Shown piece after piece: positions 13,235-62,100 of a stretch of DNA of 64,000 nt (its first letter is position 1; the number at the start of each line of letters is the position of its first letter). The stretch is from NCBI GenBank assembly GCA_963765895.1, contig CAVXZB010000048.1, positions 1 through 64,000 on the forward strand, read 5' to 3'. The position numbers and the translations under genes were made by a program. Below the pieces are notes generated by a model. That model was not told the origin of the DNA and searched no databases. It saw nothing but the letters and a program-made list of their open reading frames with translations. This DNA is from an uncultured Nitrososphaeraceae archaeon (lineage in GTDB: Archaea; Thermoproteota; Nitrososphaeria; Nitrososphaerales; Nitrososphaeraceae).

Positions 13235-13470
13235 GTATAGATAAATTGTATCACCGTCCTGGGACGTCAATTTATACCTAGAACGCAGCATTTTCAACAA
13301 AATTTATAACCTCGCGTCATTCAAATCTTATTATAACGCTTTTTCCGATATAATTATGTCGAATGTGTTAAAAAATCCGATATTGTCCGGTGTGTTAAAC
13401 CTATTGCATGTTAACGGAATAAGTATGTTCATTCACGTCGACTAATTGCTACTATCTATAGATATCAGTC
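13235..13470 (+). repeat. Dispersed non-coding repeat, copy A (subtype 1)
   Basis: GGACGTCAATTTATAC..AACGCAGCATTTTC..TTTATAAC..TTCCGATATAATTAT..AATCCGATATTGTCC..TGTGTTAA..GCTACTATCTATAGATATCA. Confidence 0.9.
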
Positions 13471-13535
13471 TATAGAATAGACAATTCTAAGTTCACAAGT
13501 CTTGATAGTTTTATTTATTGATAGGATCCCGCTAG

Positions 13536-13991
13536 TTATGGGTAAGTTTGGACAATTTTAATAACTCCTGATTTATGCATCGCCGGATCTTCGTACTTGA
13601 TGTGATGCTCTATGGATTCCAGATGTGTATTCTTTATCTCAGGATGCAGACTACAGTAATAATATCCATCCTTTATAGCTATAATAGGACAACATGGGCT
13701 CCGGTTTAATTTATGGTCTGGTAGCGCTAAGTAAGGCATAGTTGGATCATCATAAAAGAAGTCGGTTACAGAGATGACTTTGGTTGCCTCGCTGTTATTA
13801 TTTGATAACGAAGCGTGGTGTAACAGGGAATATGAACTTGCGCGCCCGTACTTCCCCGTCAGGTTTCTCGTTTGTATCGCTAGTGATTTGCGCATAGATT
13901 TTGCCAGAACGGGGAATAGAGAAAGTCGAAGAACTTGTATATCGAAAGGAGTGGGGATAAGGAAGGATTTGCTGGTTTCTATTGTGAACAA
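13536..13991 (-). pseudogene. C-terminal fragment of a mobile-element-associated protein (YYCxLHP...HHIKYxDPxxHKS)
   Basis: Motif recurs, degenerate, at ~18120-18260 behind repeat copy C; N-terminal part of the ORF looks spurious. Confidence 0.5.
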
Positions 13992-14206
13992 GCGTCCCTA
14001 GTGTCTCTAACTATAAGTCATTATCTATCCCTGAAATGACTAACTTACATTGTGTACTATGGAGATATAATAATAGGTGAAAGCTGGATAGATAGTACTG
14101 GCGAACTAGGGACACTAGGACAGAAAATGCTTTGATCGCAATGAATATACCTCCATTTTTTATGTGTTTGTAGATGAACTTTTGATACCTGTTCGTAGGA
14201 TATAAA

Positions 14207-15046
14207 TTAGAATCTTATCGCAGTTCCTCGGACATCAAAAGGCCTGTCAAGAATAGTTATAGGTTCTTGTAACTTTCTAGCATTTTCTGAAGTTATTGTC
14301 ACTTTGGTGCTCTCTTTGATTCTTTTAATAGGAATGATACCATTAGCCATTATTGACTGCCATGTATCAGCTTCGTTTATTGGAAATGAATATTGCTCAC
14401 CAGGAATCCTCCAGCCTTCGTTTGCATCTTGTATAATTATCCTAGGGATTTCTTCTGCAGATTTATATCTGTTCGAGAGCGCCTCTATTCTCGCGTTGAG
14501 ATCTTGACGAACTGGTGTGTCAGTGAATGTTTCATTATTTATATAACTTTTTAATTTCGAAATATTTTCAGACAAATTTTTAAAAATTTCTGAATGTTCC
14601 CCATCAATTATTGCAAACAAATCTAGGTATTCCGTAGAGTGCGGATTAATTGTCATACATTCTTTTTCGTCAAATGCAGACCAATACACTTTTACTCTCT
14701 CATTGCCAATGTTTAGAGTACCTTTACAATTTTTTGCTGTCTTCCATCCTTTATTTCGAACGAGCACCGTATTGATCTTGTAACTTACCTTGAATGTACG
14801 CAGGTTAAAAGGAATACGAGTGTCATCGATATCGTAAGCTGCCAATTCAACCTTCTTACCTAGCTGGGAATGCATCTTATCTACACCTAGCCAAGGTCGT
14901 CTAATCAAAGAAATTACAACAATAGCCGCGACAATAACAGATGCTATCTCTGCCAGCTTAATTCCAAGATCCAGTAATGCATTTCGTGTGTCACTGATAG
15001 TCTTCTTAATTGAATTACGAACATCATTAGCTGTTGTATTGATCAT
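14207..15046 (-). CDS. Hypothetical protein with one TM helix (15066-15296 may be its frameshifted signal-peptide end)
   Basis: 279-aa ORF; hydrophobic LAEIASVIVAAIVVISLI. Confidence 0.65.
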   Translation of the reverse strand: MINTTANDVRNSIKKTISDTRNALLDLGIKLAEIASVIVAAIVVISLIRRPWLGVDKMHSQLGKKVELAAYDIDDTRIPFNLRTFKVSYKINTVLVRNKGWKTAKNCKGTLNIGNERVKVYWSAFDEKECMTINPHSTEYLDLFAIIDGEHSEIFKNLSENISKLKSYINNETFTDTPVRQDLNARIEALSNRYKSAEEIPRIIIQDANEGWRIPGEQYSFPINEADTWQSIMANGIIPIKRIKESTKVTITSENARKLQEPITILDRPFDVRGTAIRF

Positions 15047-15821
15047 ACTCTTGATTTTTTCTACATTAGCTGCTTATACTATTGGGGATTTGTTGTAAAC
15101 GCGTGGCATTAATGGATGGCCTTGTGGCATCAATTGCAGATGAAACTTTTTTTGCGGGCCTAATTAATGATGATAACAAATTCGAAGTAGAATTCGCTGC
15201 GAAACTACTCTCTGTTGACGAGATAAAATAGGACAGAACTATAGAAGATGTCGATAAAATTAGTATTGTTGTGAAACTATATAGGCCCTTACGCAATCTC
15301 TTCTATACCCCTTCCCAATATTTGAAAGGCAATCTGTATATACGTATCGAAGGATATTTGATAAAGCCCAGCAACGTTCATTCATTCTTTCCTAGCTTGG
15401 CAAAATAATTGCATCTCTCTTCGAGAGTACACTTCTTTCTTTAGCTGAAGGTAGTCAGAATCATGAGACGGCACAAATAATACTCCCTTGTTACTGGAGA
15501 CTTTATAGCATAAACGAAGAGAATTATCACTAGTTATCTCTGGATGAATATGTATTTGTTCTTTAGATTGAGTTATTTGGTTTCACCTTCTTCTCCTCTA
15601 CGACATATCTTATAAGAGAACTACATCATACTGGCTCGCTGGAATGCAAGACAGATTTGACTTAGAACCTATCCGAAAACTCGTCCTTCTGTAAGTGATA
15701 AGCACAAGCATAATGCAACATTGCAATATGATTCTCTACCTTTTTCGTCTATCTAGTTAACAACCGTCTAAACCTGTTCATCCAAGTTTGATTTTTAACT
15801 CAATTGATGGGGGTATTTCCT

Positions 15822-16300
15822 TCAGTACACCACCACAGCAAGTCCTGGAGTAATGCCCTGCACTTTATCTATGATATTAGTCCTAATATCCTGTTGATTT
15901 GATGCAGTGACTACTATGGCATCATTATCATCAGTGTCACTGGCACTATCTCTAGAGCCGTCACAACCATCACTGCCATCACTATCTTTCGCTGGAGCTA
16001 CATTATTACCATAATTCATAGACATTTCAGACGCACCGCTTTCGTTATTATTCTGGCTTTTCATGACGGTTTTGAGAGTAGTCTTTATCTTGATCTCTAC
16101 ATTATACGATCTGGCTATCCTTTCTAGTTTATCAGAATCAAATATCAATACGCTTCCTTTATTAGTATGAACTTTGGAAGCACCAAATTTGCCGCACATT
16201 AGTTTTGTAATAGTGTTCTTATATAACTTCCAATCTGAAGCATGAAATGCGCCAGAATCATCTACCAGACCTTCTAATATGTTTGTTATCTTACCACTAT
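15822..16300 (-). pseudogene. C-terminal fragment of a primase/helicase-like protein of integrated elements
   Basis: wHTH-like LYKNTITKLMCGKFGA..GSVLIFD..KLERI followed by DSDGSDGCDGS low-complexity repeats; family call is inference. Confidence 0.4.
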
Positions 16301-16464
16301 CGCTGACATAGATATTGATACAGACTGATATGTAGATATGAGTTCTAATATTATGGAAGTAGTATCGATTCTTGACTTTAGATTTCCATGTTAGTGCATG
16401 ACTTGGGTATGTCTTAAAAAGTAACAACACTTTTATCTAATTCTGTTATCTCTTTGTTTTGGTC

Positions 16465-17250: not shown

Positions 17251-17299
17251 AAAACTAATAGTATTATATCTATTGTGTGGACATACTACAGGGATCAAG

Positions 17300-17412
17300 C
17301 ACGCAGCATTTTTGATAATATTTATAATCGAGCGCGCCGCATATCTGTATTATAACGTTTTTTCCGATATAATTATTCCGGCTTAGATGAAAAATCCGGA
17401 ATTGTCCTATGT
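17300..17412 (+). repeat. Dispersed repeat, copy B (core only)
   Basis: ACGCAGCATTTTTGATAATATTTATAATCGAGCGCGCCGCATATCTGTATTATAACG..TTCCGATATAATTAT..AAAATCCGGAATTGTCC. Confidence 0.9.
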
Positions 17413-17788
17413 ACTGCTTGATGTAGTAATCCCGTAATCAACACAGAGTGATTGTCACAGTTAACAGGTGACGACATTAAGGCAATGATTCAACGTCGAA
17501 TAGATAAGAAGCAGAGGGAATCAAGCCGCACAAGCAGTGTCTAAGAGATGTCGAAGATCATCTAACCGTTTTAGAAAGCATTACAGTGCGCTCTAAGTTT
17601 GTTTACAGATGAGGAAGAACTGAGAGAAATAACTGCTGGCACTCATTCAGGTCCATAGCTAGGTGAATGCTAGGAACCTCTGCAAGAAGACAGGTACTGA
17701 AGTACTCGCTTGGCACAAGTACTTCACGAACTCGGCAATAATGTTGGCTAGACATATTCTAAAATAATTAATTATAGAATTATTATTT

Positions 17789-18045
17789 GACGCGCGCCTA
17801 ATGATAGACAGCATACATAAATTTTATCCCCTCCTAGGACGTCAGTCTACACATAGGACGCAGCATCTTTAATAATATTTATAGCCTGGCATCACTCATA
17901 TCTTATCATAACGTTATGTCCGGGATGATCAAACCGGATGTGTTAAAAAGTCCGATGTTGTCCAATGTGTTAAACGTATTGCATGTTAACTGAATTAGAC
18001 ACGTTAATTCCCCATTGATTAATGTGCTACTATCTATAGGTATCA
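17789..18045 (+). repeat. Dispersed repeat, copy C (full length)
   Basis: GACGCGCGCCTAATGATAGAC..GGACGTCAGTCTACACATAGGACGCAGCAT..AATATTTATAG..TCCGATGTTGTCCAATGTGTTAAACGTATTGCATGTTAAC..GCTACTATCTATAGGTATCA. Confidence 0.9.
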
Positions 18046-32275: not shown

Positions 32276-32624
32276 TTACAATACTTTCTTTCTTAATGCC
32301 TCTGGCTTAACCTATGCCAGCTTGTGATTAAGCTGCATCATTGAGATAATCTGATTAAATCGCTGATTGGTCTCCTCACGAATAGTCTGTAGATTCTGTT
32401 CGTATTTCTGCTTCATTGTTTGCATTTCTATATCCTTTTCAGATAATTTTGCTTCAATGCTCTTACCCCCGGCTTCTAGTGCAGTATAATCTAGAAATGA
32501 AAAATATTTCATACACTTTGTGAGATAAATCTCTCTTCTCTCAGACTACTTCTTGGTATAATAGACGCTACCATTATGACCCAAGAACCATTCATTATAA
32601 TCTCTATTAACCTCGTCAGAAATC
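32276..32624 (-). pseudogene. Tyrosine integrase remnant 2 (C-terminal part)
   Basis: ISDEVNRDYNEWFLGHNGSVYYTKK*SERREIYLTKCMKYFSFLDY...KLA*VKPEALRKK: catalytic H...Y box plus coiled-coil tail, with internal stops. Confidence 0.75.
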
Positions 32625-32625
32625 A

Positions 32626-33833
32626 CTATTTGGTATTCTTTTTCATCAATGCTTCCGGCTTAACTCTTGCTAATTTTGGGTTATGTTGTATCATTGTTAA
32701 AATCTGACTCATTTGATCGCGCATAGCCTGGATCTCCTCATTATGTTTGCTTTCCATAATTTCAATTTCATTCTTCTTTTTGGTTAGCTCATCAACTTTC
32801 TTATGCAAGCGGCACTCTTCATTTATAGTTAGATCGTTAATTGCAGCGACATAGCCCTGTGTTTTATCATTACCCTCAAGCAATTCCATATCTGTAAGTT
32901 TGAAGTATGATTTGGTTAGGCCGCTTCTATGTCCCATTAGGTATTCGCTGTACAGTGGATTCATGCCGCTGTTGATACAGGTTGTTTTGAAGAATTTTCG
33001 TAGGCCATGAGTCTGCATTAGTTCGGTACGTTGTGTGTGGTTATTTGGTTGTAATCTTATTCCAGTCTTATATAGCAGTTTATGAACCACGAAAGCTACA
33101 ACATGAGTACTGACGGCTTTCGGTCTGTTGTATTCCGTTGCAGTATCAAATTCTATTCTGAATAGTGGGGAGTTAGGTTTTAGCTGCTCTCCTATCCTTT
33201 TACGCCAGTCTAGGTATTGGTCTATGTGTTTGGCGCACTCTGGAGGTACAGAACGTTGTATAGCTTTCCTGTTCTTTTTTGTATACGTTGATTTTATACA
33301 GGTTGTATTTGTCAATCTTTTGCAAGTCTCTTGTTCGTAGGTATGATAGAGCTCCACGACGTAGACCAGCACTAGACATTAACAGTATCATACACTTGTC
33401 TCTGAGTGGAGGCAGCGTCTACCAGTATCTTTATTTGGTCACGTGTATAGGGTTTATCCTCTACAACACTGTAATGCTTTGCTTTGAATTTCTTTAGTCG
33501 TTTCCAGTGTAGTGTGAAGCCGTTCATTTCGTAGAAGTGAGCGATAGGAGTTATGTAACTGGATACAGTTGTTGGAGCTAATCTTTTATCATGTCTTAGG
33601 TAAATAATGTAATCGCGTATTCTGCTTTCAAGGTCGCTTTCAGAAATTAGCACCATATCCTGATGGTTAGCTAAATTACAAAATTGTATGAAGTAATTAA
33701 ACTTTAGATTGTATTCCTTTTTTGTAAACTTGCTATTTATTGAATTGATAAAGTTGCTGTATGTTTCTGCTTCTGTTTGTTGTTGCTTCTGGTTTGGTAT
33801 CATTTCTCCCGTGCTTATACCAACGTAGCTCAA
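32626..33833 (-). CDS. Tyrosine recombinase/integrase with two frameshifts (~33400, ~33240)
   Basis: SAM-like N-terminus (LAPTTVSSY), EDKPYTRDQI, SSAGLRRGA (R), HGLRKFFKT (HxxR), LMGH and TKSYF (Y). Confidence 0.9.
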
Positions 33834-34320: not shown

Positions 34321-34569
34321 TTGAAAAAGATTCAGAAAAAGCTGGAAATATTCCGTAAGATAGAGCCTTATCTAGCATTTCTTAATGTCCATCAACTACA
34401 AAGACAGGGCGCAGACATACAAACCAAGATAGAAGAATTGAAAGAATTGGATCAATCACTAAGACAGCGTGAAAAGGTAAAGGATGATGCTATAGTACAA
34501 TTATCAGATCAACTTGTGTCTTTATCGGCTAGTTGCAGAAAATTATATTGGATCATCACTTTGCAGTAG
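34321..34569 (+). pseudogene. Tyrosine integrase remnant 3 (C-terminal coiled-coil tail)
   Basis: EIFRKIEPYLAFLNVHQLQRQGADIQTKIEEL...KDDAIVQLSDQL matches tails of Nitrososphaera-type integrases (from memory) and parallels remnant 2. Confidence 0.6.
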
Positions 34570-36679: not shown

Positions 36680-36921
36680 GGCGCTTGCCACTCGTGATCG
36701 AAATACAAAATAAATTATTTATCATCATAGAGATGCAAGTCTATATTGGACGCAGCATTCCCATAATATTTATAATCTCTCCCGCTGCATAGAAGACGCT
36801 ATTTCAAATATGATTATACTGGGATCTACAAGATTCCAATATTGTCGTTATTGAAACTTTGAGAATTAACAGAATTAAATAGAAGGACTCATCCACTAAC
36901 TGCTACTATCTATAGATATCA
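36680..36921 (+). repeat. Dispersed repeat, copy D (full length)
   Basis: AGTCTATATTGGACGCAGCATTCCCATAATATTTATAATCTC..TAGAAGACGCTATTTC..TCCAATATTGTC..GCTACTATCTATAGATATCA. Confidence 0.88.
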
Positions 36922-37524
36922 ATTTAAGAGTAACATTAATGCGCTTTTATATTGCACTGTACCAACTAACGTAGGCCAATTAGCCAAAAGTCTTTATTTT
37001 TAGTGCCCAAAAAACAGATTCTAGTAGATCAAGGCAATGTTGACATCTTTTCTTATCGGCATGTTTCTGGACTAGATCTAGAAGTTTAAGCAAGTCATTC
37101 ATCACCTCATTTCTGGTCATTAACTTTAATGGTGGTATGATTTTCTCGTTTTCTATATCAGTCACTATATTCACTCTTGAAAGGGACCAATAGATGGTAT
37201 GCTCGCATATGATCCTTGCTTAGCCTCTGCATTTAAGCCAGAGGCCGCAAGGTTTTGCGCCTACTCGTAAATGAAACGTAAAGCTCTTTTAACGAGTTCT
37301 CCACATTGATAAAGTCATATGAAATGTTCTTTTGTTCTACTAAATTATTTTATAAGAACAAAAAATTTTATCCATAGCTAAGTATAGTCCTATCTGTGTA
37401 AAAGAACACATTATTGAGTGCGTGTTCATTGCTAATCTGGTAAATAGAGTTAATAATTGTCATAGTTATGACTATTACTCAAATTTATGCGCATCAAAAA
37501 AGTGGAATATTTTTTTTTTATTTC

Positions 37525-37812: not shown

Positions 37813-38006
37813 ATCAATTCGTCATCGTAAGCCGGTCGTGCCATGATAATTAATCTTTCTATATGAATCCAGAATGATTATGGAATGAGCATAATTCCTA
37901 GACATTATCTTTTAGGTGCGTCTTCTCAACATTAGTCAAGTTTCCTATCAGTATAAGCAGAAGTTGAGCAGGTTTTTACCAGGTAATAAAAAGATAGAAA
38001 ATATTG

Positions 38007-38135
38007 AGACGTCAGTCTATACATAGGAAGCGGCATTTTCAATAGTATTTATAATCTCCCGTGCTGCATATTGTTAATAGAATCGGCTATTTCAGAAATA
38101 ATTATATGTATTTGAATCCGAGATTGTTACTGTCT
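38007..38135 (+). repeat. Dispersed repeat, copy E
   Basis: GACGTCAGTCTATACATAGGAAGCGGCATTTTCAATAGTATTTATAATCTC..GCTGCATAT..GCTATTTCAGAAATAATTAT. Confidence 0.88.
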
Positions 38136-38259
38136 CGATAATCACTTTGTACTCATGTCCCACCTAAAACTGATTATGTATACTGTATTTAAGGTCTGAA
38201 TTGACCCTAGAATAATCAGATAGAACAAAAATTCTTCTATCTGACTGCTATACTGTTAC

Positions 38260-38559: not shown

Positions 38560-38667
38560 GTGCTTTGTTGCGTGATTCTGAACCTACATTGCGATCATGT
38601 AAATGGCGCCACTTGTTTGGGCTATCAGTTTGCCTTGTTCCTCACAGTTAACGGGTTGTCTAGACAT
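38560..38667 (-). pseudogene. 5' remnant of a SWIM-finger gene, paralog of 58876-59124
   Basis: MSRQPVNCEEQGKLIAQTSGAI vs MPRRLVNREEQGRLIAQTSGAI; near-identical DNA GCGCCACTTGTTTGGGCTATCA. Confidence 0.8.
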
Positions 38668-38680
38668 CTATGTATTCAGC

Positions 38681-38820
38681 TGCGCGCCTCATGATTGACA
38701 TGCATCTAATTTTTATGAACATACCAAGTCTGTACATTTGATCTCTCAATTCAGAAAACCTCTTTAATGTGATATATTTCATAACGTAAATTAGACGACA
38801 TTGTTTCCGACATTATTGAT
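38681..38820 (+). repeat. Dispersed repeat, copy F (subtype 2)
   Basis: GCGCGCCTCATGATTGACATGCA..TACATTTGATCTCTCAATTCAGAAAA..TTTCATAACGTAAAT..GACATTGTTTCCGAC. Confidence 0.85.
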
Positions 38821-39175
38821 AGCACCAGTTAAATAAGAAATTTTTGAATTGTTTTCACAGACAAGTAATGCGGAAAACCTTTGTTAAGCTCGACTATTAG
38901 ACTACAAATTGTAAGCAGGTTACCACTTGGTGACTAATAACCGTAATATGCCGCACCGATTCTGTCTTACCATGTCTTGGTATGTTTATGTATAGTATTA
39001 AATGAACCAGCCATAAACACTCTAAATATAGTATACACATAGTTTAATTTTTAAAAGAGAACAATTATCGAAGCATTCCAGAGAATTTCTAACCTATAGT
39101 AATAGTCTTTTAGGCATTTTGGAAGGCAATGCAAGCATAGAAAAACTTATTAAAATACCTTTACATATCCCTCTG

Positions 39176-39686: not shown

Positions 39687-39944
39687 GGGTGCCTCATGAT
39701 AGATATGCACCTAATTTTTGTCATCACAACAAGGCGTCAGTCTATGCATTTTATGTCTCGATTCAGAAAAGGTTTATAATCTGGCGCGCCGCACATCTGT
39801 AATAGAAGACGCTATTTTCGAGATAAATAAATTAGATCTGCTGCAAAATCTGAAATACTCAGACGTATTAAAATTACTGGACATTAACATAATTAATTAG
39901 TCAGTTTACATGGATTAATTGTTACTACTATCTATAGATATCAG
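39687..39944 (+). repeat. Dispersed repeat, copy G (full length, mosaic of subtypes 2 and 1)
   Basis: GTGCCTCATGATAGATATGCA..GGCGTCAGTCTATGC..TCTCGATTCAGAAAAGG|TTTATAATCTGGCGCGCCGCACATCTGTA..CTACTATCTATAGATATCAG. Confidence 0.9.
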
Positions 39945-40907: not shown

Positions 40908-41362
40908 ATAGCACTGTAGATAGTGATGTTGTATTACACGATTGTCACAAATATACTATACTATTAATGAAGGGGCGCGCCTTTCCCTAACTAGCCTTTG
41001 ATTATGACATTGCTGCTATCACAACATAAGCTTATTGAATGGTTAAGTGATAAAATATCGAGGAGTGTTAGCTTAACCAAATGGGCAGCTCCTGAATAGA
41101 CTCGAGCAGTCATCATCAAATAGTGGATCTCAAACATCATATATTATTATTTTATTTAAAATCATCCGAATAACCCTTACATCTATAATTATTCATAGTT
41201 TAGGTTGGCCTACATTCATCAAAAGTAAGTAAAAAATGGTAGCCTATCTGTATTAATAGTAAGATAAAGAAAAGGCTGTAGTTTGAAATACTATTCAATT
41301 GACTATTATTTAGATTTTGAATTTTGATTTTAGCCAGATAATATTTATATAAAATATTGAGA

Positions 41363-41704
41363 ATGGCTTTCCTAATGAGAAAGAACACTGTATTGTGTGT
41401 AAGTCTCCTGCTTTCAGTAGCACTCGGATTCTCTATACTAGCCAATGCTGGTTTCAGTGGCGCGCCGTCAGTATTTGCACAGACAATAACACCGAAAATG
41501 CACTTGGAGGAAGGGCTTAAGGCATTAAAAAGTGGCGATAATCAAGGAGCAATGATGCACTTGAATGCAGCAGATCAGGGTCTTACTAGTGCTTCCGATC
41601 AATCTGCAAAGATGCACTTGGATCAAGGAATTCAAGCGTTAAAGAATGGAGACAATCAAGGAGCAATGATGCACTTGAATGCAGCAGATCAGGCTCTTAA
41701 ATAG
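41363..41704 (+). CDS. Secreted His/Met-rich protein with two 38-aa tandem repeats
   Basis: KMHLEEGLKALKSGDNQGAMMHLNAADQ x2; exact 40-bp DNA repeat at 41540-41579 and 41654-41693. Confidence 0.8.
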   Translation: MAFLMRKNTVLCVSLLLSVALGFSILANAGFSGAPSVFAQTITPKMHLEEGLKALKSGDNQGAMMHLNAADQGLTSASDQSAKMHLDQGIQALKNGDNQGAMMHLNAADQALK

Positions 41705-41815
41705 TATAAATTAGTCCAAGAAATAGAGCTTATTTCAGGATAAATTTTTTTCATTTTGGACGTACGCCGACAACTGACATACAAATGAAGTTTAACCTCA
41801 TTAGTGTCTATGTAT

Positions 41816-41945
41816 GAGGTCTATACAGAGAACGGCTTATCTTAGATAATGCTTATAATCTCGTATGCTGCAATCTGTATTAGAAGACACTTTTCCGATA
41901 TAATTATGCAGGATCTGATATGTTATCCGATTTAGTCTGATTCGG
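41816..41945 (+). repeat. Dispersed repeat, copy H
   Basis: GGTCTATACA..TTATAATCTC..GCTGCAATCTGTATTAGAAGACACTTTTCCGATATAATTATGCAGGAT..ATCCGATTTAGTC. Confidence 0.88.
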
Positions 41946-41973
41946 ATTACTAATATGAGAGTCGGTTATCTAC

Positions 41974-42230
41974 CTACGGTTTAGCCAACACATTGTACAA
42001 ATATCTATTTTCTATCTTTAATTTCCCAAACCTTATAGGTAGATAACCATTCATCTTTGCTGTACTAACATTATATTTGATCATATAATTGGGATTAAAG
42101 TCTAGTCTCATCAGAGAACTACATCTGTCAAGCCAATTCGGTATTGCACCAAAAGCCTCATCAGGAAAAGATTTTCTAATATTAATATGATATGAAACGA
42201 AAATATGCACATTGCAAATTTTTCCCATGA
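41974..42230 (-). pseudogene. PriX-like C-terminal domain fragment of an element primase-polymerase
   Basis: YHINIRK..DEAFGAIPNWLDRCSSLMRLDFNPNYMIKYNVSTAKMNGYLPIRFGKLKIENRYLY. Confidence 0.65.
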
Positions 42231-43409
42231 TTCCAATATGGTGTTGCACGTACACCATTAACATCGAGCGATGTATCTGGAAATGCACCTGCCGTTTAGT
42301 CTAGACTATGTCCGGCTTATTCTCGGACGAATTCAATAAGGTAATCTAGGGAAGATGCATTCTGAGTATATCTTACGTACGCACGCATGTGCATTGCAGC
42401 ATACTGAATTTTTATAAAACGCAATAAATACAGTCAGAAGTACCAAGTAACTGATAAGCTAGAATGATTATTTTATTTATTAATACAAAATAAACAGTGA
42501 ATATGATTAGAACACATTATAAAATTGTGTGCATTCACTATAGCTAGGAATCCCCAGCGATTTCTCTTCGGTATTGACATTATAGGGCGATCCGGGTGGA
42601 CAACTGGCCCGGTCGCTCTATCTTTTCTAGTTATAGATGTTATTACACTATAGAAAAAATCGAGGTGATATCGATAATAGGAATTTTGAATACCAATTGA
42701 GAACTCAGACTATAGTGCCCAGATATTACACTGGAAGATTCATGCTCCAATAATTGGAGGTATGATATCAATTGGGTAACAGCGAGATCAAATTAATAAT
42801 TAGAAGATCTAGTATCATCAACACCCGAGATACCCGGCTATTTTGACTCTTGAAAGATTTTAGTGATATATAGAAGACACAGAATAAAGTTTAATTTATA
42901 ATAGAATTCAAATCTATCCAGGACATCTCGGGCGCAATTATATCATATCAGTATAGTTTAAAGCAGGTGAGGCTATCTATAATAGGTATAATAAGGATAA
43001 AAGTGGTAACAAACGCTAGTTATTAATCAATTCTGTTTATGATGAATACAAATATTCTACACAAAATCTTATTGTGATATGAGCGAATCTCATCGCCTAT
43101 CTAACATTCTCATCTTCAAGAAAGGACTAGAGCGCATGAATAAAGTGGCGCAGCAGGTGGGGTTAGAAATAGGGAAGGAAGTTATAACATCGCTCTGTCG
43201 AATATAAAGAATGTTTTACCAGAATTTGTGAAGTGGCAATTGCCAATCTATCTGGATCGTCCTGATAGACAGGCATCTAATTTGTATCAACATTCCAAGG
43301 CATCAGACTATACATTTGATATCTCAATTTGGTATAGAGCAAGTTCTTACCATGTCCACTTGATATATTGAATCCTCCTGTTCTATAGGTTAAAGGCTAT
43401 TTTGTTTTT

Positions 43410-46337: not shown

Positions 46338-46365
46338 GGCGCGCGCCTAATCATGGACATGCAGC
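46338..46365 (+). repeat. Isolated 5' end of the dispersed repeat
   Basis: GGCGCGCGCCTAATCATGGACATGCA vs copies C and F. Confidence 0.55.
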
Positions 46366-51447: not shown

Positions 51448-51476
51448 TATTATTTGGCGTGCCTCATGATAGAAAT
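51448..51476 (+). repeat. Isolated 5' end of the dispersed repeat
   Basis: TATTATTTGGCGTGCCTCATGATAGAAA vs copy C TATTATTTGACGCGCGCCTAATGATAGACA. Confidence 0.65.
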
Positions 51477-52589: not shown

Positions 52590-52790
52590 CACTACTAGCC
52601 TGAGCCTTGTTATACAATAACTGTTTTCTGTCTTTAATTTTCCCCAGACTTATCAGTAAATAACCATCCTTTTTGCAGAATTAATATTATATTTGATCAT
52701 ATAATTGGGATTAAAGTCTAATCTCCTTAAGGAATCACATCTGTCAAGCCAATTCTTTATTATATTAAAAGCCTAATACTAGTCTTTAGT
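52590..52790 (-). pseudogene. Second PriX-like primase C-terminal fragment
   Basis: AFNIIKNWLDRCDSLRRLDFNPNYMIKYNINSAKR; ~85 bp nearly identical to 42073-42157. Confidence 0.7.
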
Positions 52791-53400
52791 GATAGTATAA
52801 GTTCAATAAGAAATTTCTGAATGCAATTCATAGAGAAGTAATGCAGAAAATCTCTCAAATTAAGCACGAATATTAGGTTACATAAGGTAGCAAATTACCA
52901 TCTGGTGACTAGCACCCGTGATCCTCTGCTTTTTATATGAAATTTATTTATTATATCTGAATGCAAGGTGTTCTCCATTGTGACACAGTGGACAATCTTT
53001 GTCTCTCCTTCGTTCCAAGTCAAAAACGACTCCGCAATTCCTGCAAATGCGTATATTTTTTGCCATGCTAATAGAATGTCATTGCTTACTTAAGGGCTAT
53101 GTAGACAATCCTGTAAGTCCACATTGTAAATTATCTCTGGTTAGTTTCTGATGAGTTTTGCTATTCATCATACGATTTATTAGCATTCGATATCACCAAC
53201 ATAAATTCGCTAATTTGCTTACCTAAACTTATGCATAAATGCGTCTGATTTTAATCACAATATTTGACGGTACTTTTATGATTTATTTGATAATCGTCAT
53301 AAATCTCGCATTTTGACCAGCTAATATCTCTTCTATACCTCCATCATCGTTCTTCAACAGTATAAGAAATAACAAAAGCAATCTCATTTTATTAATTCAT

Positions 53401-54957: not shown

Positions 54958-55004
54958 TCTGTACTTCTAATCCATATCTACATTTACTCTGGCAGTTAAA
55001 ACTT

Positions 55005-55080
55005 GTGATATGCTTCCATATTGTTATTAGAAGACACTTTCTGACATCATTTATGTTGGACTTAAGTGTCGCTGCGATTT
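55005..55080 (+). repeat. Dispersed repeat, copy I (degenerate)
   Basis: GTGATATGCTTCCATATTGTTATTAGAAGACACTTTCTGACATCATTTATGTTGGA. Confidence 0.6.
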
Positions 55081-55179
55081 CGATTTAAACCCCTAATAAT
55101 TAGATTAGAACTTTTGTGTTCCTTAGGTACCAGATAGGAATATATCAGGCAGTATTATTTCCACCAACGCATCTATAAT

Positions 55180-55637
55180 AACTGGGAGATTTACTGGTAA
55201 AGTCTGTACTCATATAGCTGAGCGAGCATGCATACCTACTTTTGGGCCATACAATGTAAGGATTAATCAGAAAAGCCATCAGCTACATCAGCTGTCTTGG
55301 TAAATCCCTCTACTGTATTTATCATAACTCTAACCTGGAGCCATGCTGCCACTTTGTCTAGTCTACCTAGTTCATGTTTAAGGCTGCCTAATATCGATAA
55401 ACAAGCTAATTTTGCAGATTCATATCCTTGCTCAACAGACACATCGTTTGTTCCTACCTTGCCATAAGGTCCAGCAGCAACAGAACCATCATGATTTTGC
55501 GGTCAATGACCTAAGATATATGCTTTATCTCCTCGAAGCCGAACCCATACAGAAGGGGTTTTAACGTCTGATGGTACTTCTAGTGATTGTGGAATTTTGA
55601 GAGCAAGAGAATTAAGTTTAGATTCTATTTGATCCAT
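55180..55637 (-). pseudogene. RidA/YjgF-family protein with stops/frameshift
   Basis: MDQIESKL..GKVG..VSVEQGYESAKLACLSILGSLKHELG.LDKVAAW..VADGFSD. Confidence 0.75.
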
Positions 55638-56272: not shown

Positions 56273-56688
56273 GTATTAACATAAAGATAAGATTGTTTTT
56301 GGGTATTATGCAAGCTAAGATTAGTTTTGGTGTAAATTTTCTAATATTTGTCTGATTTTATTGTCCAGTTATAAAACAGTCAAACTGAGCAAACAAGTGT
56401 AAAAGTAGCTTCACATGCTAAGTTTGTTGGTTCAAGCCTTGACTGCTACATTGCTAGAGAGAATGGTTCTACAGAATGACTGTATACTGACAACGATTAT
56501 GGCTATACTCAATTCTATAAATCAGTGGATACCACTATGATGGGTAGGTTAACCTATGACAAGTTCTTACATTCTGGTTTGACGATCATCATGAAACTAA
56601 ATAGCGTCCATAGAATATCATGGAAAGAGGGGAGATCTTTATCAACGTGTTGGGTCGATCATAAGCATAAGAGAGTGAATCAATAGCC

Positions 56689-58429: not shown

Positions 58430-58659
58430 CATTAACTCTATTCTTTCCTGCTCAATCATTATGCTTGCGACTATATTGATAAACTATTTGACTCTCTATA
58501 TTCAAGAGAGCTGTGGCTTACCTTCATTCAAGCCACACTGCTAGTGTTGATTATCCTCTGATTCAAAAATTTTTTTGTAATTTGTAATTGCGATATTATT
58601 TTCTGAGGGGAAATTACACTACAGAAGTCGGGGATTTTTTTCTTTTTGTAATTGCTATA

Positions 58660-58815
58660 TGCACCTCCTGATAGATATGTAAATGAATTCTTGTTGTCCT
58701 AACCAGACTCGGTTCTATACATTTGATCTCTCAATTCAGAAAAAACCATTTTTAATGCGATATGTTTCATAACGTAAATAGAAGACACTATTCCTAGATG
58801 ACTGGACCCGGGATT
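58660..58815 (+). repeat. Dispersed repeat, copy J (subtype 2)
   Basis: GCACCTCCTGATAGATATG..CTATACATTTGATCTCTCAATTCAGAAAAA..TTTCATAACGTAAATAGAAGACACTATTCC. Confidence 0.85.
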
Positions 58816-58875
58816 TAGAGGTATAACAGACTGTTTATTGGTGTAGGAGAGATGGTAGTTCATCTACTGCTTGAT

Positions 58876-59124
58876 TCAATGATTAAATGTCGTGCTTTGA
58901 CGATGATAAAATTCAACTGCATATACATGCTTGCATTTGGTATTGTGACGAGCGTAATCTGGACATGAACAAACCCATCCAGATTCAGTTGCAATGACAG
59001 TATAAGTGTTATAGCCGGATTTTGATCTTACCCTATAACTTGATTCATTGATCATCGAAATAGCGCCACTTGTTTGGGCTATCAATCTGCCTTGCTCTTC
59101 ACGGTTGACGAGTCGTCTAGGCAT
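58876..59124 (-). CDS. SWIM zinc-finger protein
   Basis: YRVRSKSG..Y.V...WVCSCPDY....CKHVYAV. Confidence 0.85.
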   Translation of the reverse strand: MPRRLVNREEQGRLIAQTSGAISMINESSYRVRSKSGYNTYTVIATESGWVCSCPDYARHNTKCKHVYAVEFYHRQSTTFNH

Positions 59125-59598
59125 GTTTAGCCAACCGTGCGCATCCTAACCGCAGGAATTAGTTTCTCGTCTATTGCCTCATCAAATCTTTTATTAGGAT
59201 ATTCTTGGCATTCTCTTCTGATTCTAGTCACTCCATTCAGGTCTTTCGTGTATATGCGCATCAAAGCGTTTTGCCCATCTTCCCATGTACTCTCGAATCT
59301 CTCTCGAATCTCTCACCAGCATATTCCTTATAAGAATCAGAACCAAAATGCCAGATAGTGACAATCCAAGAATCATGATCTGGAATGGATGATAATGACA
59401 ATGACAGTGATGAGGGCGCGTTCTATATATCGTAGCGTCGCCTATACACAAGTTAATACATTAGAAAGTCGAACCAGAAGTATAGCAAGGTAGGAAACGA
59501 TAGAGCTCGAGATCCTAATTTGGTAATTCACTGAAAATATTATTTGATAACGTTACTTGATCTAGCCTATTTGTGCGGCGAAATGTCAGTGTAGTAGA

Positions 59599-60177
59599 TT
59601 ACTTGTATCTATTTTCTAGATCGTTTCCATATTTCTGAATTAATTTGCGTACTTTGGGATTAATGACAACACTGCAATATGGAGCATCCTGATGTTCCTC
59701 ATAGTAATTTTTGTGGTAATCCTCTGCAACATAAAAGTTTTTAAAAGCAGTAATTTCAGTCACAATTGGATTTTTGTAAACATCCGCTTTTTCAAGATCC
59801 CTTTTTGACTTCTCGGCAATTTCTTTTTGTTTTTGATCATGATAAAAAATTGCAGATCTATACTGTGTGCCAACATCGTTGCCTTGTCTATTAAGAGTAG
59901 TTGGATCATGAGTATGCCAGAAAACATCAAGGATTTTTTCATAAGGTATCACTGTTGGATCAAATTCTATTTGAATTGACTCTGTATGCCCTGTTTTTCC
60001 TGTACATACTTGCTCATAAGAAGGATTTTCTACTATTCCTCCTGAATATCCAGGTAGAACCGATTTGACGCCTTTGAGCCTTTTGAAGATTGCTTCGCTA
60101 CACCAAAAACACCCATTAGCAAGCGTTGCTATTTGCACTGTCATGTTATTGTCATTGTCACTGTCATTATTATTCAT
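59599..60177 (-). CDS. msrA: Peptide methionine sulfoxide reductase A
   Basis: GCFWC, GYSGG, NPSYEQVC, HDPTTLNRQGNDVGTQYRS, AEDYH..Y, PYC. Confidence 0.96.
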   Translation of the reverse strand: MNNNDSDNDNNMTVQIATLANGCFWCSEAIFKRLKGVKSVLPGYSGGIVENPSYEQVCTGKTGHTESIQIEFDPTVIPYEKILDVFWHTHDPTTLNRQGNDVGTQYRSAIFYHDQKQKEIAEKSKRDLEKADVYKNPIVTEITAFKNFYVAEDYHKNYYEEHQDAPYCSVVINPKVRKLIQKYGNDLENRYK

Positions 60178-60298
60178 GTATTATTCTCTTAGGTAGCCGT
60201 CTAGCCCGCCTTAAATGGCGATTTTCAAATTGAAATATGAATAGTGCCATTGAGGAAAAGCGTATTCTCGGCATCCGAGGACTTAACATAGTCACCCA

Positions 60299-60425
60299 GA
60301 ATATTTATAATCTGGCGCGCCGCACATCTGTATTATAAGACAGTGTTTCCGATATAATTACACGGGACATGTCAAAATCCGATACTGTCCGATGTGTTAA
60401 GACTTGGCTATAGATTGAATTAGAG
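60299..60425 (+). repeat. Dispersed repeat, copy K (subtype 1)
   Basis: AATATTTATAATCTGGCGCGCCGCACATCTGTATTATAAGAC..TTCCGATATAATTA..AAAATCCGATACTGTCCGATGTGTTAA; 29 bp identical to copy G. Confidence 0.92.
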
Positions 60426-60451
60426 GACAGATTATTAGGTTATAATATAAT

Positions 60452-60855
60452 TTAACTCAATGTTCTTCTAAAAACTTCTTCAAATTGTTAACTTCTATAT
60501 CAAATCCTTTAAGTTGTTCCTGAAACTAATCATCTAAAAGTCCATCTGGTCTCATAAACATCCATGTGGTCGTAGAACCTTCCTCATTAGGGACTACTCT
60601 CATGTATACATTCCATTCTAATCCTCCACCTACAAATGTATGGTCAAGTATCCCCAGATTTTGAAATGGTTTGACTTTTACCTTTGATTTACCTGAAACA
60701 ATATGATCAAACTGCCACCAATCATCATCACCTCTCGTAACTGATTTTATTGCACCTCCTTTCTCCATATTCTTCACATAAGAAAAGAATTCAAATACAT
60801 GATTTGCAGGTTTGTTAACGGTTAGGACTTTTACAATAACTTGCTTGGGAGCCAT
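60452..60855 (-). pseudogene. SRPBCC-like protein with a premature stop at 60526
   Basis: GILDHTF..W.V.MRVVPNEEGST...RPDGLLDD*FQEQLKGFDIEVNNLKK. Confidence 0.7.
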
Positions 60856-61444
60856 GGTCTACTATGACATCCGTTTAGTAGGATATTTATTCCTTAATTC
60901 CATCCAGGAATGGTTAGTACATTTGATTATACCCATTGGCGGCAACCTATGAATTAATCGATAATTAGATACTCGCCAGTCACCACCATTATAACGTTCG
61001 GGCAGACCGGCGCAATCTGACCAGCGGTTTAAAATGGCTCAAGCCTACCTAGGTACGCATGCCAACCAGGGACAAAACGTAAAGCAGGTTCCTCCGCGAA
61101 AATTTGTCTTGCAGAGTTTAAGAGTTCACTGACCAGTCTGTTATTATCGGTCCATATATTGTTTCAATAATTTGTGGTGATAATCAAATTAGAATGTGAA
61201 ACTTGCTTAACCAAAGTGACATTTATTGTGCTTGACTCAGCAAGTGAAAAATTTTAAGGAGTTTAATATGCCTCATTTGCTTATTATGGCCTTCGTATCT
61301 AGAAGCTCGAGATCTTAGTCTCTTCTCTTACCTCATAATGATTAATAATTAGAAACGCTTGGGGTTACTAAAGCGATAACGACAATCAGTATACTTTTGA
61401 TCCTTTGTATATTTATAAACTGCACTCTATATATTATTGCGAGT

Positions 61445-61937
61445 ATGCAGAAAATAACTCCATGCTTGTGGCTCGATTATAAAGCAGAGGAGGCGAGCAA
61501 AGTTTTATGCCTCCATTTTCAAAAATTCAAAGATTGGTGACGTTACCTACTATGGGAAAGAGGGATACGAGATTCATGGAAGAGAAGAAGGTTCAGTTTT
61601 GACTATGGAATTCGAAATTGAAGGACAAAAATTTGTAGCACTCAATGGTGGCCCAGTATTTAAGTTCAACGAAGCCATTTCATTTCAGATTCATTGTGAG
61701 ACTCAAGAAGAAGTGGACTATTATTGGAAGAAACTTTCTGAGGGTGGCGATGAAAAAGCGCAGCAGTGTGGTTGGCTCAAGGATAAATATGGAGTCTCGT
61801 GGCAAATTGTTCCAATAGCTTTGATCCAGATGCTAAAGGACAAAGACACTGAGAAATCAGAGAGAGTCATGAAGGTAATGCTTCAGATGCATAAGCTCGA
61901 CATAAAAACTCTAAAGCAAGCATATGAAGGAAATTAG
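61445..61937 (+). pseudogene. VOC/PhnB (3-demethylubiquinone-9 3-methyltransferase-like) gene, one frameshift near 61560
   Basis: MQKITPCLW..AEEA.KFY; ALNGGP.FKFNEAISF, CGWLKDKYGVSWQI. Confidence 0.85.
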
Positions 61938-62011
61938 TAAACAGTAAGATAGCAGCAGATCTACAAGAGATATAGGATGCTACTATTAGACCATAGATGG
62001 GTAGCATAGAG

Positions 62012-62100
62012 GGTGATTGATTTCACAACATAAATAGAAGATACTATTCCGATACCTATCTTGGATCTGATAGTATCCGATATTGGTCTAAATTAGATTG
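62012..62100 (+). repeat. Dispersed repeat, copy L (subtype 2, partial)
   Basis: TTTCACAACATAAATAGAAGATACTATTCCGATAC..GGATCTGATAGTATCCGATATTGGTC. Confidence 0.75.

What the first reader, a model, noticed from the sequence alone, without database searches (positions are those of the whole stretch)
13235..62100. Co-oriented family of ~250-bp non-coding repeats punctuating a 50-kb cargo array: candidate archaeal cassette/accretion system
Seen: 12 copies (A 13235, B 17300, C 17789, D 36680, E 38007, F 38681, G 39687, H 41816, I 55005, J 58660, K 60299, L 62012) plus isolated 5' ends at 46338 and 51448. All lie on the + strand, and I found no reverse copy by eye. The shared order of blocks is GCGCGCCTCATGATAGAC - GACGTCAGTCTATAC - ACGCAGCATT - AATATTTATAATC - GCGCGCCGCA - TAGAAGAC - TTCCGATATAATTAT - ATCCGATATTGTCC - TGTGTTAA - CTACTATCTATAGATATCA. 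Indels between copies are not multiples of three, so the repeat is non-coding. It has no terminal inverted repeats or TSDs, so it is not a MITE. Between copies are 1-10 unrelated stress, redox and secreted genes and pseudogenes, and a tyrosine integrase cluster sits in the middle (32.3-34.6 kb). Inference: random transposition would give mixed orientation. Uniform polarity fits repeated site-specific insertion at one locus, either an integron-like cassette array with a non-attC site or tandem accretion of small integrative elements that each bring this sequence as att/ori. I do not recognise it as a described element.
Basis: partly seen in the sequence, partly recalled or inferred. Interest (0 to 1): 0.85.

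Follow-up and report, generated by a model that had tools for sequence, protein, structure and literature searches.

The report
Leftover backbone of stacked archaeal plasmids
The repeat is real: it is the conserved non-coding stretch beside the replication gene of a plasmid-like integrating element, and dozens of decayed copies, all pointing the same way, have piled up into islands in this soil ammonia-oxidising archaeon.

Summary
An iterated nhmmer profile finds 122 copies in the 4.9-Mb genome (about 102 loci after collapsing duplicates). Thirteen lie in the window, all on +. The repeat is non-coding and has no consensus fold, no TIRs and no Rfam match. It occurs in 6 of 6 congeners and 0 of 24 other genera searched.

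Polarity is local. Pairs under 50 kb apart are 182 same: 31 opposite; beyond 50 kb they are 22: 36. A DDE insertion sequence used as control gives 18: 23.

The repeat has fixed neighbours. About 70 bp downstream, on the opposite strand, lies the 3' end of a primase-polymerase/P-loop replication gene; in a shorter variant it is a PriX-domain gene end at about 35 bp. A tyrosine-integrase 3' end lies just upstream in a few copies. Replication-gene remnants share the island polarity out to 50 kb.

Copies are old (median identity 63%), and neighbours are no more alike than distant copies. I found no empty sites and no repeat-to-repeat unit in two contexts.

Best reading: decayed, co-oriented integrative elements stacked in tandem, the repeat being their cis-acting backbone site (ori and/or att). 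The integron-like reading is not supported.

The parts
13230..13468 (+). Repeat A, full length (M1+M2, HMM 2-229).
   Evidence: nhmmer. The exact 3' 19-mer is at 13449-13467.
13536..13991 (-). Remnant of the replication-gene 3' end (Zn-finger-like tail, residues about 377-511 of the 511-aa C75 frame). It ends 69 bp from repeat A.
   Evidence: The P-loop part of the C75 frame has Prim-Pol-bearing full-length homologues.
17264..17473 (+). Repeat B, M1-only variant (HMM 41-157) with a third type of 3' partner sequence.
17793..18045 (+). Repeat C, full length, with the 5' GCGCGCC motif.
32396..33833 (-). Broken tyrosine-recombinase gene (two frames, 32626-33372 and 33372-33833) plus a further integrase C-terminal fragment at 32396-32623.
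   Evidence: Sub-threshold PF00589 (18.7 bits) and PF13495 (15.2 bits); 18.9 bits; paralogues by tblastn.
34321..34569 (+). Integrase C-terminal tail fragment. It is itself a dispersed repeat of about 30 copies.
   Evidence: Coverage 29 and 32 copies. The G004 orthologue matches INT residues 348-393. Likeness to the C68 integrase tail was seen by eye.
36687..36921 (+). Repeat D, full length. The G004 orthologue lacks 136 columns of it through a microhomology deletion.
36922..37395 (+). Alternative 3' partner module of the repeat, about 13 copies genome-wide, always attached to the repeat's 3' end.
37995..38183 (+). Repeat E, M1 variant (HMM 17-164).
   Evidence: Conserved in G004.
38683..38921 (+). 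Repeat F (HMM 3-119 by the iterated profile).
39689..39944 (+). Repeat G, full length.
   Evidence: An RNA-library contig covering the SnoaL gene runs about 125 nt into it.
41793..42006 (+). Repeat H, M1-only (HMM 30-158), PriX-type variant.
41974..42288 (-). PriX-domain gene 3' remnant. It ends 35 bp from repeat H.
   Evidence: tblastn to the C41 PriX protein, which scores 47.1 bits on PF18689.
43278..43332 (+).
   Evidence: (D9).
46341..46358 (+). Isolated 5' motif, about 30 nt of likeness only.
51456..51474 (+). Isolated 5' motif.
52610..52922 (-). Second PriX-like remnant with stops (NWLDRC...LDFNPNYMIKYN).
   Evidence: Translation read by eye; direct repeat D6 with 42051-42161.
54982..55202 (+).
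   Evidence: Found only by the first profile, which contained it; not found by the iterated profile.
58661..58908 (+). Repeat J (HMM 4-125), followed on the opposite strand by a SWIM zinc-finger ORF at 58876-59124.
60292..60426 (+). Repeat K (HMM 58-188). A duplication breakpoint lies at 60422/60424.
62012..62087 (+). Repeat L (HMM 81-150).
62702..62978 (-). Third PriX-like remnant (residues 16-127).

Best explanation
The repeat is the conserved non-coding backbone segment of one lineage of plasmid-like integrative elements, of the 'cryptic integrated element' kind: a primase-polymerase/P-loop replication protein plus a tyrosine integrase. The lineage is confined to one uncultured Nitrososphaeraceae genus.

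In the element the repeat lies between the 3' ends of convergent genes. The replication gene ends about 70 bp beyond module M2, or about 35 bp beyond M1 in a PriX-type variant. In some copies the integrase gene ends 100-180 bp before M1.

The 50-kb 'array' is a stack of many independently acquired elements, inserted one beside another in the same orientation (tandem site-specific accretion) and then worn down by deletion. Mostly cargo genes, short gene ends and this segment remain.

Inferred, not shown: the segment is the element's cis-acting site. M2 has an almost invariant TGCTAC-TATCTATAGATA-TCA palindrome next to the Rep C-terminal Zn-finger tail, and I read it as origin-like or Rep-binding. 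M1 has two roughly 30-bp iterons (TCCGATAT...GATGTGTTAA), a TATA-like AATATTTATAATC box and a 5' GGCGCGCC motif. It is shared between Rep types and lies on the integrase side, so I read it as att- or regulator-like.
For: Shown:
1. Fixed synteny. Within 1.5 kb of a repeat, ORFs of the ZnF-tail family are downstream and antisense in 15 of 15 cases, the PriX family in 14 of 16 (all 16 antisense) and the Prim-Pol family in 6 of 6. Distances cluster at 66-116 bp after HMM 229 and 24-49 bp after HMM 157/158. The same layout recurs in loci of congeners and soil metagenome contigs.
2. Identity of the neighbours. PriX PF18689 scores 47.1 bits, Prim-Pol PF09250 24.3 bits (cut-off 22.8) and integrase PF00589 37.9 bits. 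The P-loop part of the ZnF-tail frame has 581 longer homologues, and many of the 120 listed are 840-970 aa with PF09250 or are named bifunctional primase/polymerase of Nitrososphaeraceae.
3. The polarity belongs to whole elements. For 45 Rep-type remnant loci against repeats, the counts are 62 antisense: 18 same at 3-20 kb (p 8e-7), 32: 11 at 20-50 kb and 8: 10 beyond 50 kb. For repeat against repeat they are 63: 21 for adjacent copies (60: 20 after collapsing duplicates) and 182: 31 under 50 kb against 22: 36 beyond. In 19 clusters of 3 or more copies, 74 of 84 copies have the majority orientation. The IS control gives 18: 23. Loci from congeners give 25: 3 (my count) and soil contigs 26: 3; several of these are orthologous, so they are not independent.
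4. Independent acquisitions. Median pairwise identity is 63%. Only 20 of 4491 pairs reach 90%, in line with the segmental duplicates listed. Pairs 20 kb or less apart are no more alike than others (0.640 against 0.631, p 0.14).
5. Not mobile on its own. Duplicated loci show no empty site, and E, F, G and H sit at the same places in G004.
6. Precedent. The pRN1 origin lies within 166 bp downstream of its primpol-helicase gene (abstract of PMC4234260). Thaumarchaeal CIEs with integrase and primpol-S3H, and tandem integrations, are described in passages of PMC6563490.
Against: 1. Repeats outnumber recognisable gene remnants: about 102 repeat loci against 45 Rep-type loci and 24 integrase loci. 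E, F and G are only 0.7-1 kb apart. Random deletion of whole elements should not leave the 230-bp segment more often than pieces of a 2.7-kb gene, so something beyond passive decay preserves or multiplies the segment.
2. No intact element carrying the repeat was found. The intact integrase and Prim-Pol genes (C68), the PriX/helicase set (C41) and the 1396-1401-aa Rep genes of congeners have neither the ZnF tail nor the repeat.
3. No att core was defined. Half-copies start and end over broad ranges. Informative homology breaks fall at HMM 9-231, with only a loose cluster of 5 of 15 at 133-152. No flanking direct repeats and no tRNA targets were found.
4. Integrase geometry is inconsistent: 11 upstream on the same strand against 7 downstream antisense, and no polarity at island scale.
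5. There is no stem-loop like the pRN1 origin.
6. The genome is a MAG, 88% complete, with 23% of its bases in duplicates and a chimeric contig start. Some 'copies' may therefore be strain variants. Gene calls are my own crude ORFs.
Confidence: 0.55

Rival explanations
1. Cassette platform working in trans. The repeat is a double-stranded recombination site. Integrases of autonomous elements excise and insert att-plus-cargo circles at resident copies, so the arrays are an archaeal analogue of an integron or of ICE/CIME accretion-mobilisation, still active.
For: - Co-oriented copies with 1-10 unrelated genes between them.
- 'Solo' copies far outnumber int and rep remnants.
- A closely related genome (G004 contig C191) carries the same modules in a different order, next to repeats.
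- Tyrosine recombinases are enriched within 10 kb: 13 of 24 against 5.7 expected.
- Five of 15 homology breaks fall at HMM 133-152, inside the second iteron.
- The repeat diverges as slowly as ORFs between G000 and G004: 3.1% against 4.6% for other non-coding DNA, p 0.057.
Against: - None of 61 inter-repeat segments was found bounded by repeats in a second context.
- Only 40 of 1593 duplication endpoints lie within 50 bp of a repeat, and they fall at no single position.
- No recombinase sits in a fixed position or orientation.
- The only indel seen inside a copy is an ordinary microhomology deletion.
- Joints in soil contigs that link two copies have only 22-24 nt on one side.
Confidence: 0.15
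2. Host-retained module. The repeat, often with the small Zn-finger ORF cut from the Rep C-terminus, is kept by selection. Possible roles are a decoy or handcuffing site that excludes incoming plasmids of the family, or a regulatory or architectural site.
For: - The ZnF tail shows a median omega of about 0.2 among 9 gap-free copies.
- Stop-free 69-191-aa frames covering only the tail occur in 5 of the 7 genomes (G000, G001, G002, G004, G005), while no full-length ZnF-tail Rep was found in any of the 7.
- The R-ZnF / R-PriX arrangement is identical in two records (L006, L021).
- The 3' 20-mer is nearly invariant among copies that are otherwise about 63% identical.
- Orthologous divergence equals that of ORFs.
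Against: - The omega estimate rests on copies pre-selected for being gap-free; all 9 also proved stop-free.
- Many tails carry stops.
- L006 and L021 are 100% identical over 1 kb, so they are one lineage.
- Conserved ends are equally expected if only elements with intact sites could spread.
- The p of 0.057 is marginal.
Confidence: 0.12
3. Non-autonomous transposable element, either MITE-like or an IS200/IS605-type PATE. It would insert without TIRs or TSDs, with strand bias from single-strand transposition or local hopping.
For: - More than 100 dispersed copies.
- No TIR or TSD, as in PATEs.
- Conserved ends.
- Preference for the 3' sides of genes: upstream gene on the same strand 50: 23, downstream gene antisense 41: 23.
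Against: - No Y1 transposase in the genome (0 matches, genome 88% complete), and only one broken TnpB-like remnant, not on a repeat-bearing stretch.
- No consensus hairpins.
- No empty sites.
- No young copies.
- Polarity is at island scale, not replichore scale.
- Fixed synteny with Rep gene ends.
Confidence: 0.06
4. Structured non-coding RNA or a promoter/UTR element serving the neighbouring genes.
For: - A TATA-like box (AATATTTATAATC) is among the best conserved blocks.
- One RNA-library contig runs from the SnoaL gene about 125 nt into copy G and continues in repeat-like sequence.
Against: - RNAalifold gives no consensus structure on 41 distinct copies, on either strand.
- Single-copy fold z-scores are +0.57 and -1.86.
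- No Rfam family matches.
- There is no constant relation to the flanking cargo genes.
Confidence: 0.05

Closest known systems
Cryptic integrated elements (CIE) of Thaumarchaeota and their tandem integrations (PMC6563490; passages read)
   Same: Both have a tyrosine integrase plus a primpol/S3H-type replication protein. Integration occurs outside as well as inside tRNA genes. Arrays form by re-use of one site. Cargo is mostly accessory genes.
   Different: Here no element is intact. The recognisable unit is a 230-300-bp non-coding segment present about 100 times per genome in all 7 genomes of one genus, and islands hold up to 13 co-oriented copies. The paper has no occurrence of 'MITE' or 'non-coding', and the passages shown for 'tandem', 'direct repeat', 'array' and 'intergenic' describe no conserved non-coding repeat. 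Its supplementary tables could not be seen.
Origin of plasmid pRN1 downstream of orf904 (PMC4234260; abstract read)
   Same: Both are a cis-acting non-coding region directly downstream of a primpol-helicase replication gene, about 170-240 bp long.
   Different: The pRN1 origin is a 100-nt stem-loop whose integrity is required. This repeat has no consensus fold. It has iterons, a 12-bp palindrome and a TATA-like box instead. Origin function is not shown here.
Integron attC arrays, including the archaeal integrons of 10.1101/2022.02.06.479319 (seen in the search listing only)
   Same: Both are co-oriented repeats punctuating an array of unrelated accessory genes.
   Different: This repeat has no folded attC, no IntI next to an attI, genes on both strands, several genes per interval, a repeat two to four times longer, and no unit seen moving.
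Accretion of ICEs with CIMEs in streptococci. The concept is recalled; papers that use the terms were seen in a listing only (PMC7563491, PMC5704250).
   Same: Both show tandem site-specific integration next to decayed relatives that keep att sites but have lost their own recombination genes, giving co-oriented att repeats between cargo blocks.
   Different: The streptococcal elements are bacterial and conjugative, with short defined att sites at a tRNA or gene end. Here neither the att core nor the target is defined, and there are far more remnants.

Membership tests
Integron | attC sites that fold as imperfect hairpins on one strand (R''-L'' / L'-R'). | tested here: not met
   RNAalifold on 41 distinct near-full copies gives no pairs on either strand. 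Fold z-scores for copy A are +0.57 and -1.86.
Integron | An IntI-type integrase adjacent to attI at one end of the array. | tested here: not met
   The 24 PF00589 matches have no fixed distance or orientation. The window's recombinase is broken and lies mid-array. The IntI-specific extra domain was not tested.
Integron | Cassettes (a gene plus one site) that occur as units in different arrays. | tested here: not met
   None of 61 inter-repeat segments was found bounded by repeats in another context, apart from large syntenic duplicates.
MITE | Terminal inverted repeats and target-site duplications. | tested here: not met
   No inverted repeat joins the ends. Flanks in the alignment of 30 full copies share no duplication.
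MITE | Filled/empty polymorphism and bursts of near-identical copies. | tested here: not met
   No empty site among duplicated loci. Only 20 of 4491 pairs reach 90% identity, in line with the segmental duplicates.
IS200/IS605 PATE | A Y1 (TnpA) transposase, or TnpB, in the genome, and subterminal hairpins. | tested here: not met
   PF01797 has 0 matches in a genome that is 88% complete. PF07282 has one broken remnant and one sub-threshold match, both on C84 far from its repeat copies. No consensus hairpins.
IS200/IS605 PATE | Orientation tied to replication direction (replichore scale). | tested here: not met
   Co-orientation vanishes beyond 50 kb: 22 same against 36 opposite.
Integrative plasmid-like element (thaumarchaeal CIE type) | Encodes an integrase and a replication protein. 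| tested here: met
   Remnants of Prim-Pol/P-loop Rep and PriX-domain genes lie at fixed distances from the repeat, and integrase ends lie upstream in about 5 copies. All are fragments; none is intact.
Integrative plasmid-like element (thaumarchaeal CIE type) | Flanked by direct repeats (attL/attR) at a defined target. | tested here: inconclusive
   No boundary or core could be defined. There are no tRNA genes in the window or in six other loci.
pRN1-type replication origin | Lies just downstream of the primpol-helicase gene. | tested here: met
   About 70 bp, or about 35 bp, from the stop codon in more than 20 copies.
pRN1-type replication origin | A long conserved stem-loop required for replication. 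| tested here: not met
   No consensus structure. Replication activity cannot be tested with these tools.

The most novel reading that the evidence does not exclude
The repeat is a live, roughly 230-bp double-stranded recombination and replication site. Integrases supplied in trans by autonomous elements keep inserting site-bearing circles of cargo at resident copies. These islands would then be a thaumarchaeal gene-capture platform, functionally parallel to integrons but mechanistically unrelated. It would account for the large genomes of this genus (3.4-4.9 Mb, against 1.2-3.5 Mb in the other genera of the family listed). The retained Zn-finger tail of Rep would be the site-binding accessory protein.
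Probability: 0.15. Interest if true: 0.85.

Novelty: new variant of a known kind. Interest (0 to 1): 0.45.

Why it matters
Soil ammonia-oxidising archaea of this uncultured genus have unusually large genomes. In this genome 23% of the bases lie in duplicates of 300 bp or more.

The repeat gives a simple marker, one nhmmer profile, for the remnants of one integrative-element lineage. The marker shows that the accessory islands, which carry stress, redox and secreted-protein genes, were built by serial, same-orientation integration. Transposition did not build them.

It also points to a candidate cis site (origin and/or att) and a candidate DNA-binding tail of an archaeal primpol Rep. Both could be tested in vitro and might serve as parts for a thaumarchaeal vector, of which I know none (from recall, not checked).

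The excess of 'solo' copies over gene remnants is unexplained. It is the one feature that could still hide an active cassette mechanism.

Tried and rejected
- Rfam at gathering threshold: the only hit in the window is a bacterial 16S rRNA.
- Folding of copy A and RNAalifold on 41 copies: no structure.
- Coding test on the consensus: negative.
- IS200/IS605 idea: no Y1 transposase and one dead TnpB.
- Search for empty sites among G000 duplicates: none.
- Search for a crossover point: breakpoints are spread out, and the G004 deletion in copy D is a microhomology deletion.
- Search for cassettes in two contexts: none.
- tRNA targets: none.
- Viral contigs (IMG/VR): the 19-mer has 0 matches and the Rep has no relative.
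- Circular contigs among the 80 metagenome loci: none.
- Pfam, PHROGs and PDB for the ZnF-tail frame itself: no family. It was identified only through longer homologues.
- Laid contigs: the listed RNA contigs do not cover D, E, F or H. Joints between copies (36921>42070, 39810>41887) have only 22-24 nt on one side. Neither counts as evidence.
- The adjacency of SWIM-finger ORFs to repeats was not quantified genome-wide.
I therefore could not scan the congener loci fetched for the repeat.

Full report
OBSERVATION

The window is the first 64 kb of contig C48 of a 4.9-Mb, 88-contig MAG. All 12 listed copies align.

A profile built from them and iterated twice on the genome finds 122 hits, 61 on each strand. 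Fourteen lie on C48. Thirteen of these, all on +, lie between 13.2 and 66.3 kb, and one on - lies at 141.7 kb. Copy I is hit only by the profile that contained it. A fragment at 43278 is new.

The two 'isolated 5' ends' are 25-40-nt pieces. The 18-nt 5' motif occurs 40 times in the genome at <=3 mismatches, against 0 for the reversed control. Two further + copies lie at 69,979 and 71,170 on C48.

The array is not an assembly artefact. Sister genome G004 (93-97% identity) keeps E, F, G and H in place. JGI soil contigs L133 and L072 reproduce the D-H spacing. Logan contigs of two soil studies cover the region at 99% or more.

WHAT THE REPEAT IS NOT

- It is not coding. There are stops in all six frames, no 3-nt periodicity, and 234 of 281 internal gaps are 1-2 nt long.
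- It is not a structured RNA or an attC-like folded site. RNAalifold gives no pairs on 41 distinct copies on either strand, single-copy z-scores are +0.57 and -1.86, and no Rfam family matches.
- It is not a classical MITE. There are no TIRs, no empty site among duplicated loci, and only 20 of 4491 copy pairs reach 90% identity, in line with the segmental duplicates listed.
- It is not an IS200/IS605 derivative. The genome, 88% complete, has no Y1 transposase and only one dead TnpB remnant elsewhere.

DISTRIBUTION AND POLARITY

The family is confined to one genus: 6 of 6 congeners and 0 of 24 other genera searched. The exact 21-mer of its 3' end occurs in 14 stretches from 5 Nitrososphaeraceae MAGs and nowhere else in the species collection.

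Copies cluster in 46 clusters, 19 of them with 3 or more copies. Adjacent copies are co-oriented 63: 21 (p 5e-6), or 60: 20 after collapsing duplicated loci.

Taking all same-contig pairs, co-orientation is 182: 31 below 50 kb and 22: 36 above. The polarity therefore belongs to islands, not to replichores. An 83-copy DDE insertion sequence in the same genome shows 18: 23. The same polarity appears in congener loci (25: 3, my count) and in soil contigs (26: 3). Several of those loci are orthologous to one another.

ANATOMY

The repeat has these conserved blocks:
- a 5' GGCGCGCC-TCATGATAGAC motif;
- GACGTCAGTCTATAC;
- a TATA-like AATATTTATAATC;
- two direct units of about 30 bp (TCCGATAT...GATGTGTTAA);
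- a nearly invariant 3' end, TGCTAC-TATCTATAGATA-TCA, with a perfect 12-bp palindrome.

It is modular. M1 covers about HMM 1-157 and M2 about 130-229. Twelve copies end exactly at 157/158, and a smaller set starts at 129-158.

THE DECISIVE RESULT: FIXED NEIGHBOURS

I clustered all stop-to-stop ORFs within 1.5 kb of a copy.

1. The small 'Zn-finger ORF' beside copy A is the C-terminal end of a long frame. In C75 it is 511 aa open, with a Walker-A-like GEQGSAKS seen by eye. Members of this family lie downstream and antisense in 15 of 15 cases, 66-116 bp after HMM 229. The P-loop part has 581 longer homologues. Many of the 120 listed are 840-970 aa, carry Pfam Prim-Pol, or are named bifunctional primase/polymerase of Nitrososphaeraceae.
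2. M1-only copies are followed 24-49 bp later by the antisense end of a PriX-domain gene (PF18689, 47.1 bits). Fourteen of 16 lie downstream and all 16 are antisense.
3. A 917-aa Prim-Pol protein family lies downstream and antisense in 6 of 6 cases.
4. A tyrosine integrase family (PF00589, 37.9 bits) ends 100-180 bp upstream on the same strand in about 5 copies, but it also occurs in other positions.

The same layouts recur in the other genomes and in soil contigs. The repeat is therefore the non-coding segment at the 3' end of the replication gene of an integrative, plasmid-like element.

WHY THE ISLANDS ARE POLAR

Replication-gene remnants (45 loci) are antisense to repeats well beyond the adjacent copy: 62: 18 at 3-20 kb and 32: 11 at 20-50 kb. 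Beyond 50 kb the counts are random, 8: 10. In the window all four Rep-type remnants (13.5, 42.0, 52.7 and 62.8 kb) are on the - strand.

Copies are mutually old (median identity 63%), and neighbours are no more alike than distant copies. This argues against local duplication and against a burst of transposition.

Tandem re-use of one site by integrase-bearing elements is described for archaea, Thaumarchaeota included (passages of PMC6563490).

WHAT REMAINS OPEN

- No intact element with the repeat was found. The intact integrase and Prim-Pol genes of C68, the C41 set and the 1396-1401-aa Rep genes of congeners lack both the ZnF tail and the repeat.
- I could not define an att core. Half-copy ends are spread out. 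Homology breaks fall between HMM 9 and 231, with only 5 of 15 at 133-152. The one indel inside a copy is a microhomology deletion. No tRNA genes are nearby.
- Repeats outnumber gene remnants, about 102 against 45 Rep-type and 24 integrase loci. This is more than passive decay predicts.
- The ZnF tail looks constrained: median omega about 0.2 on 9 gap-free copies, a pre-selected set. Stop-free 69-191-aa frames of the tail alone occur in five of the seven genomes.
- Orthologous copies diverge as slowly as ORFs: 3.1% and 3.1%, against 4.6% for other DNA (Fisher p 0.057).
- These points keep two bolder readings alive. One is a trans-mobilised cassette system. The other is a host-retained site-plus-binding-protein module.
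- Against the cassette reading, none of 61 inter-repeat segments recurs bounded by repeats elsewhere. Only 40 of 1593 duplication endpoints lie near repeats, against 15.6 expected.

FUNCTION OF THE SEGMENT (INFERENCE)

In pRN1, whose Rep is also a primpol-helicase, the origin lies within 166 bp downstream of the gene (abstract of PMC4234260). That origin is a stem-loop, which this repeat lacks.

M2 is specific to the ZnF-tail Rep and abuts it, so I read it as Rep-binding or origin-like. M1 is shared between Rep types and lies on the integrase side, so I read it as att- or regulator-like. Neither reading is shown.

Among the listed RNA-library contigs from soil, one runs from the SnoaL gene about 125 nt into copy G. 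That does not show a discrete RNA.

VERDICT

This is a new variant of a known kind, namely integrated plasmid-like elements of Thaumarchaeota. It is notable for the scale (about 100 remnants per genome, genus-wide), for the island polarity, and for a conserved non-coding marker that I did not find described. My literature check was limited. Two searches listed no paper whose title or abstract start describes such a repeat. Term searches inside PMC6563490 found no occurrence of 'MITE' or 'non-coding'.

Noticed in passing
window 1-8400: The first 8.4 kb are 60-78% G+C and carry a complete bacterial 16S rRNA gene (132-1651, '-', 1603.7 bits). They are joined to 31-46% G+C archaeal DNA. This is a chimeric contig or contamination in the MAG.
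   Followed up: no
window 9158-10142: A DDE_Tnp_1 insertion sequence (ORF 9178-10026 '-') has about 83 copies genome-wide, mostly 99% or more identical. Its orientation is random between neighbours (18 : 23). I used it as the control.
   Followed up: partly
G000, whole genome: 23% of bases lie in duplicates of 300 bp or more at 88% identity or more. Whole contigs duplicate others at 94-99.8% (C26 with C59, C7 with C52, C13 with C44, C42 with C60). This is either a strain mixture in the bin or large segmental duplication.
   Followed up: partly
window 34324-34544: The coiled-coil C-terminal tail of the integrase family is itself a dispersed repeat of about 30 copies, mostly without the rest of the gene.
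   Followed up: partly
window 41357-41704: A small-metal-binding-protein-like gene has an internal 114-bp tandem duplication (D7, 86%). It has the highest contig depth in the soil RNA libraries (about 320 in X15).
   Followed up: no
window 58876-59124 and 38560-38670: A small SWIM zinc-finger ORF lies antisense just after repeat J, and a fragment of the same gene lies just before repeat F. This is another small Zn-binding gene tied to the repeat.
   Followed up: partly
G000:C78:78923-80026 and relatives: One cargo family comprises 33 ORF pieces. By my reading of the sequence, not by any tool, it looks like a luciferase-like/F420-type oxidoreductase. Sixteen pieces lie near a repeat, all downstream on the same strand.
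   Followed up: no
G004:C191 (L025): A 6.6-kb contig of the sister genome strings together, in another order, modules that lie at 16.4, 36.9, 51.6, 59.6 and 60.3 kb of the window. Four repeat copies, all on '-', lie between them. Several of these modules are also multi-copy within G000.
   Followed up: partly
window 38566-38691: One soil DNA contig (run X1, 657 nt, more than 250 nt on each side) lacks these 126 bp: the SWIM fragment plus the first 10 nt of repeat F.
   Followed up: no
G006:C589, G006:C208, G001:C49: Open frames of 1396-1401 aa share the P-loop domain (44-45% identity) but lack the Zn-finger tail. They may be intact replication genes of related, possibly active, elements.
   Followed up: no
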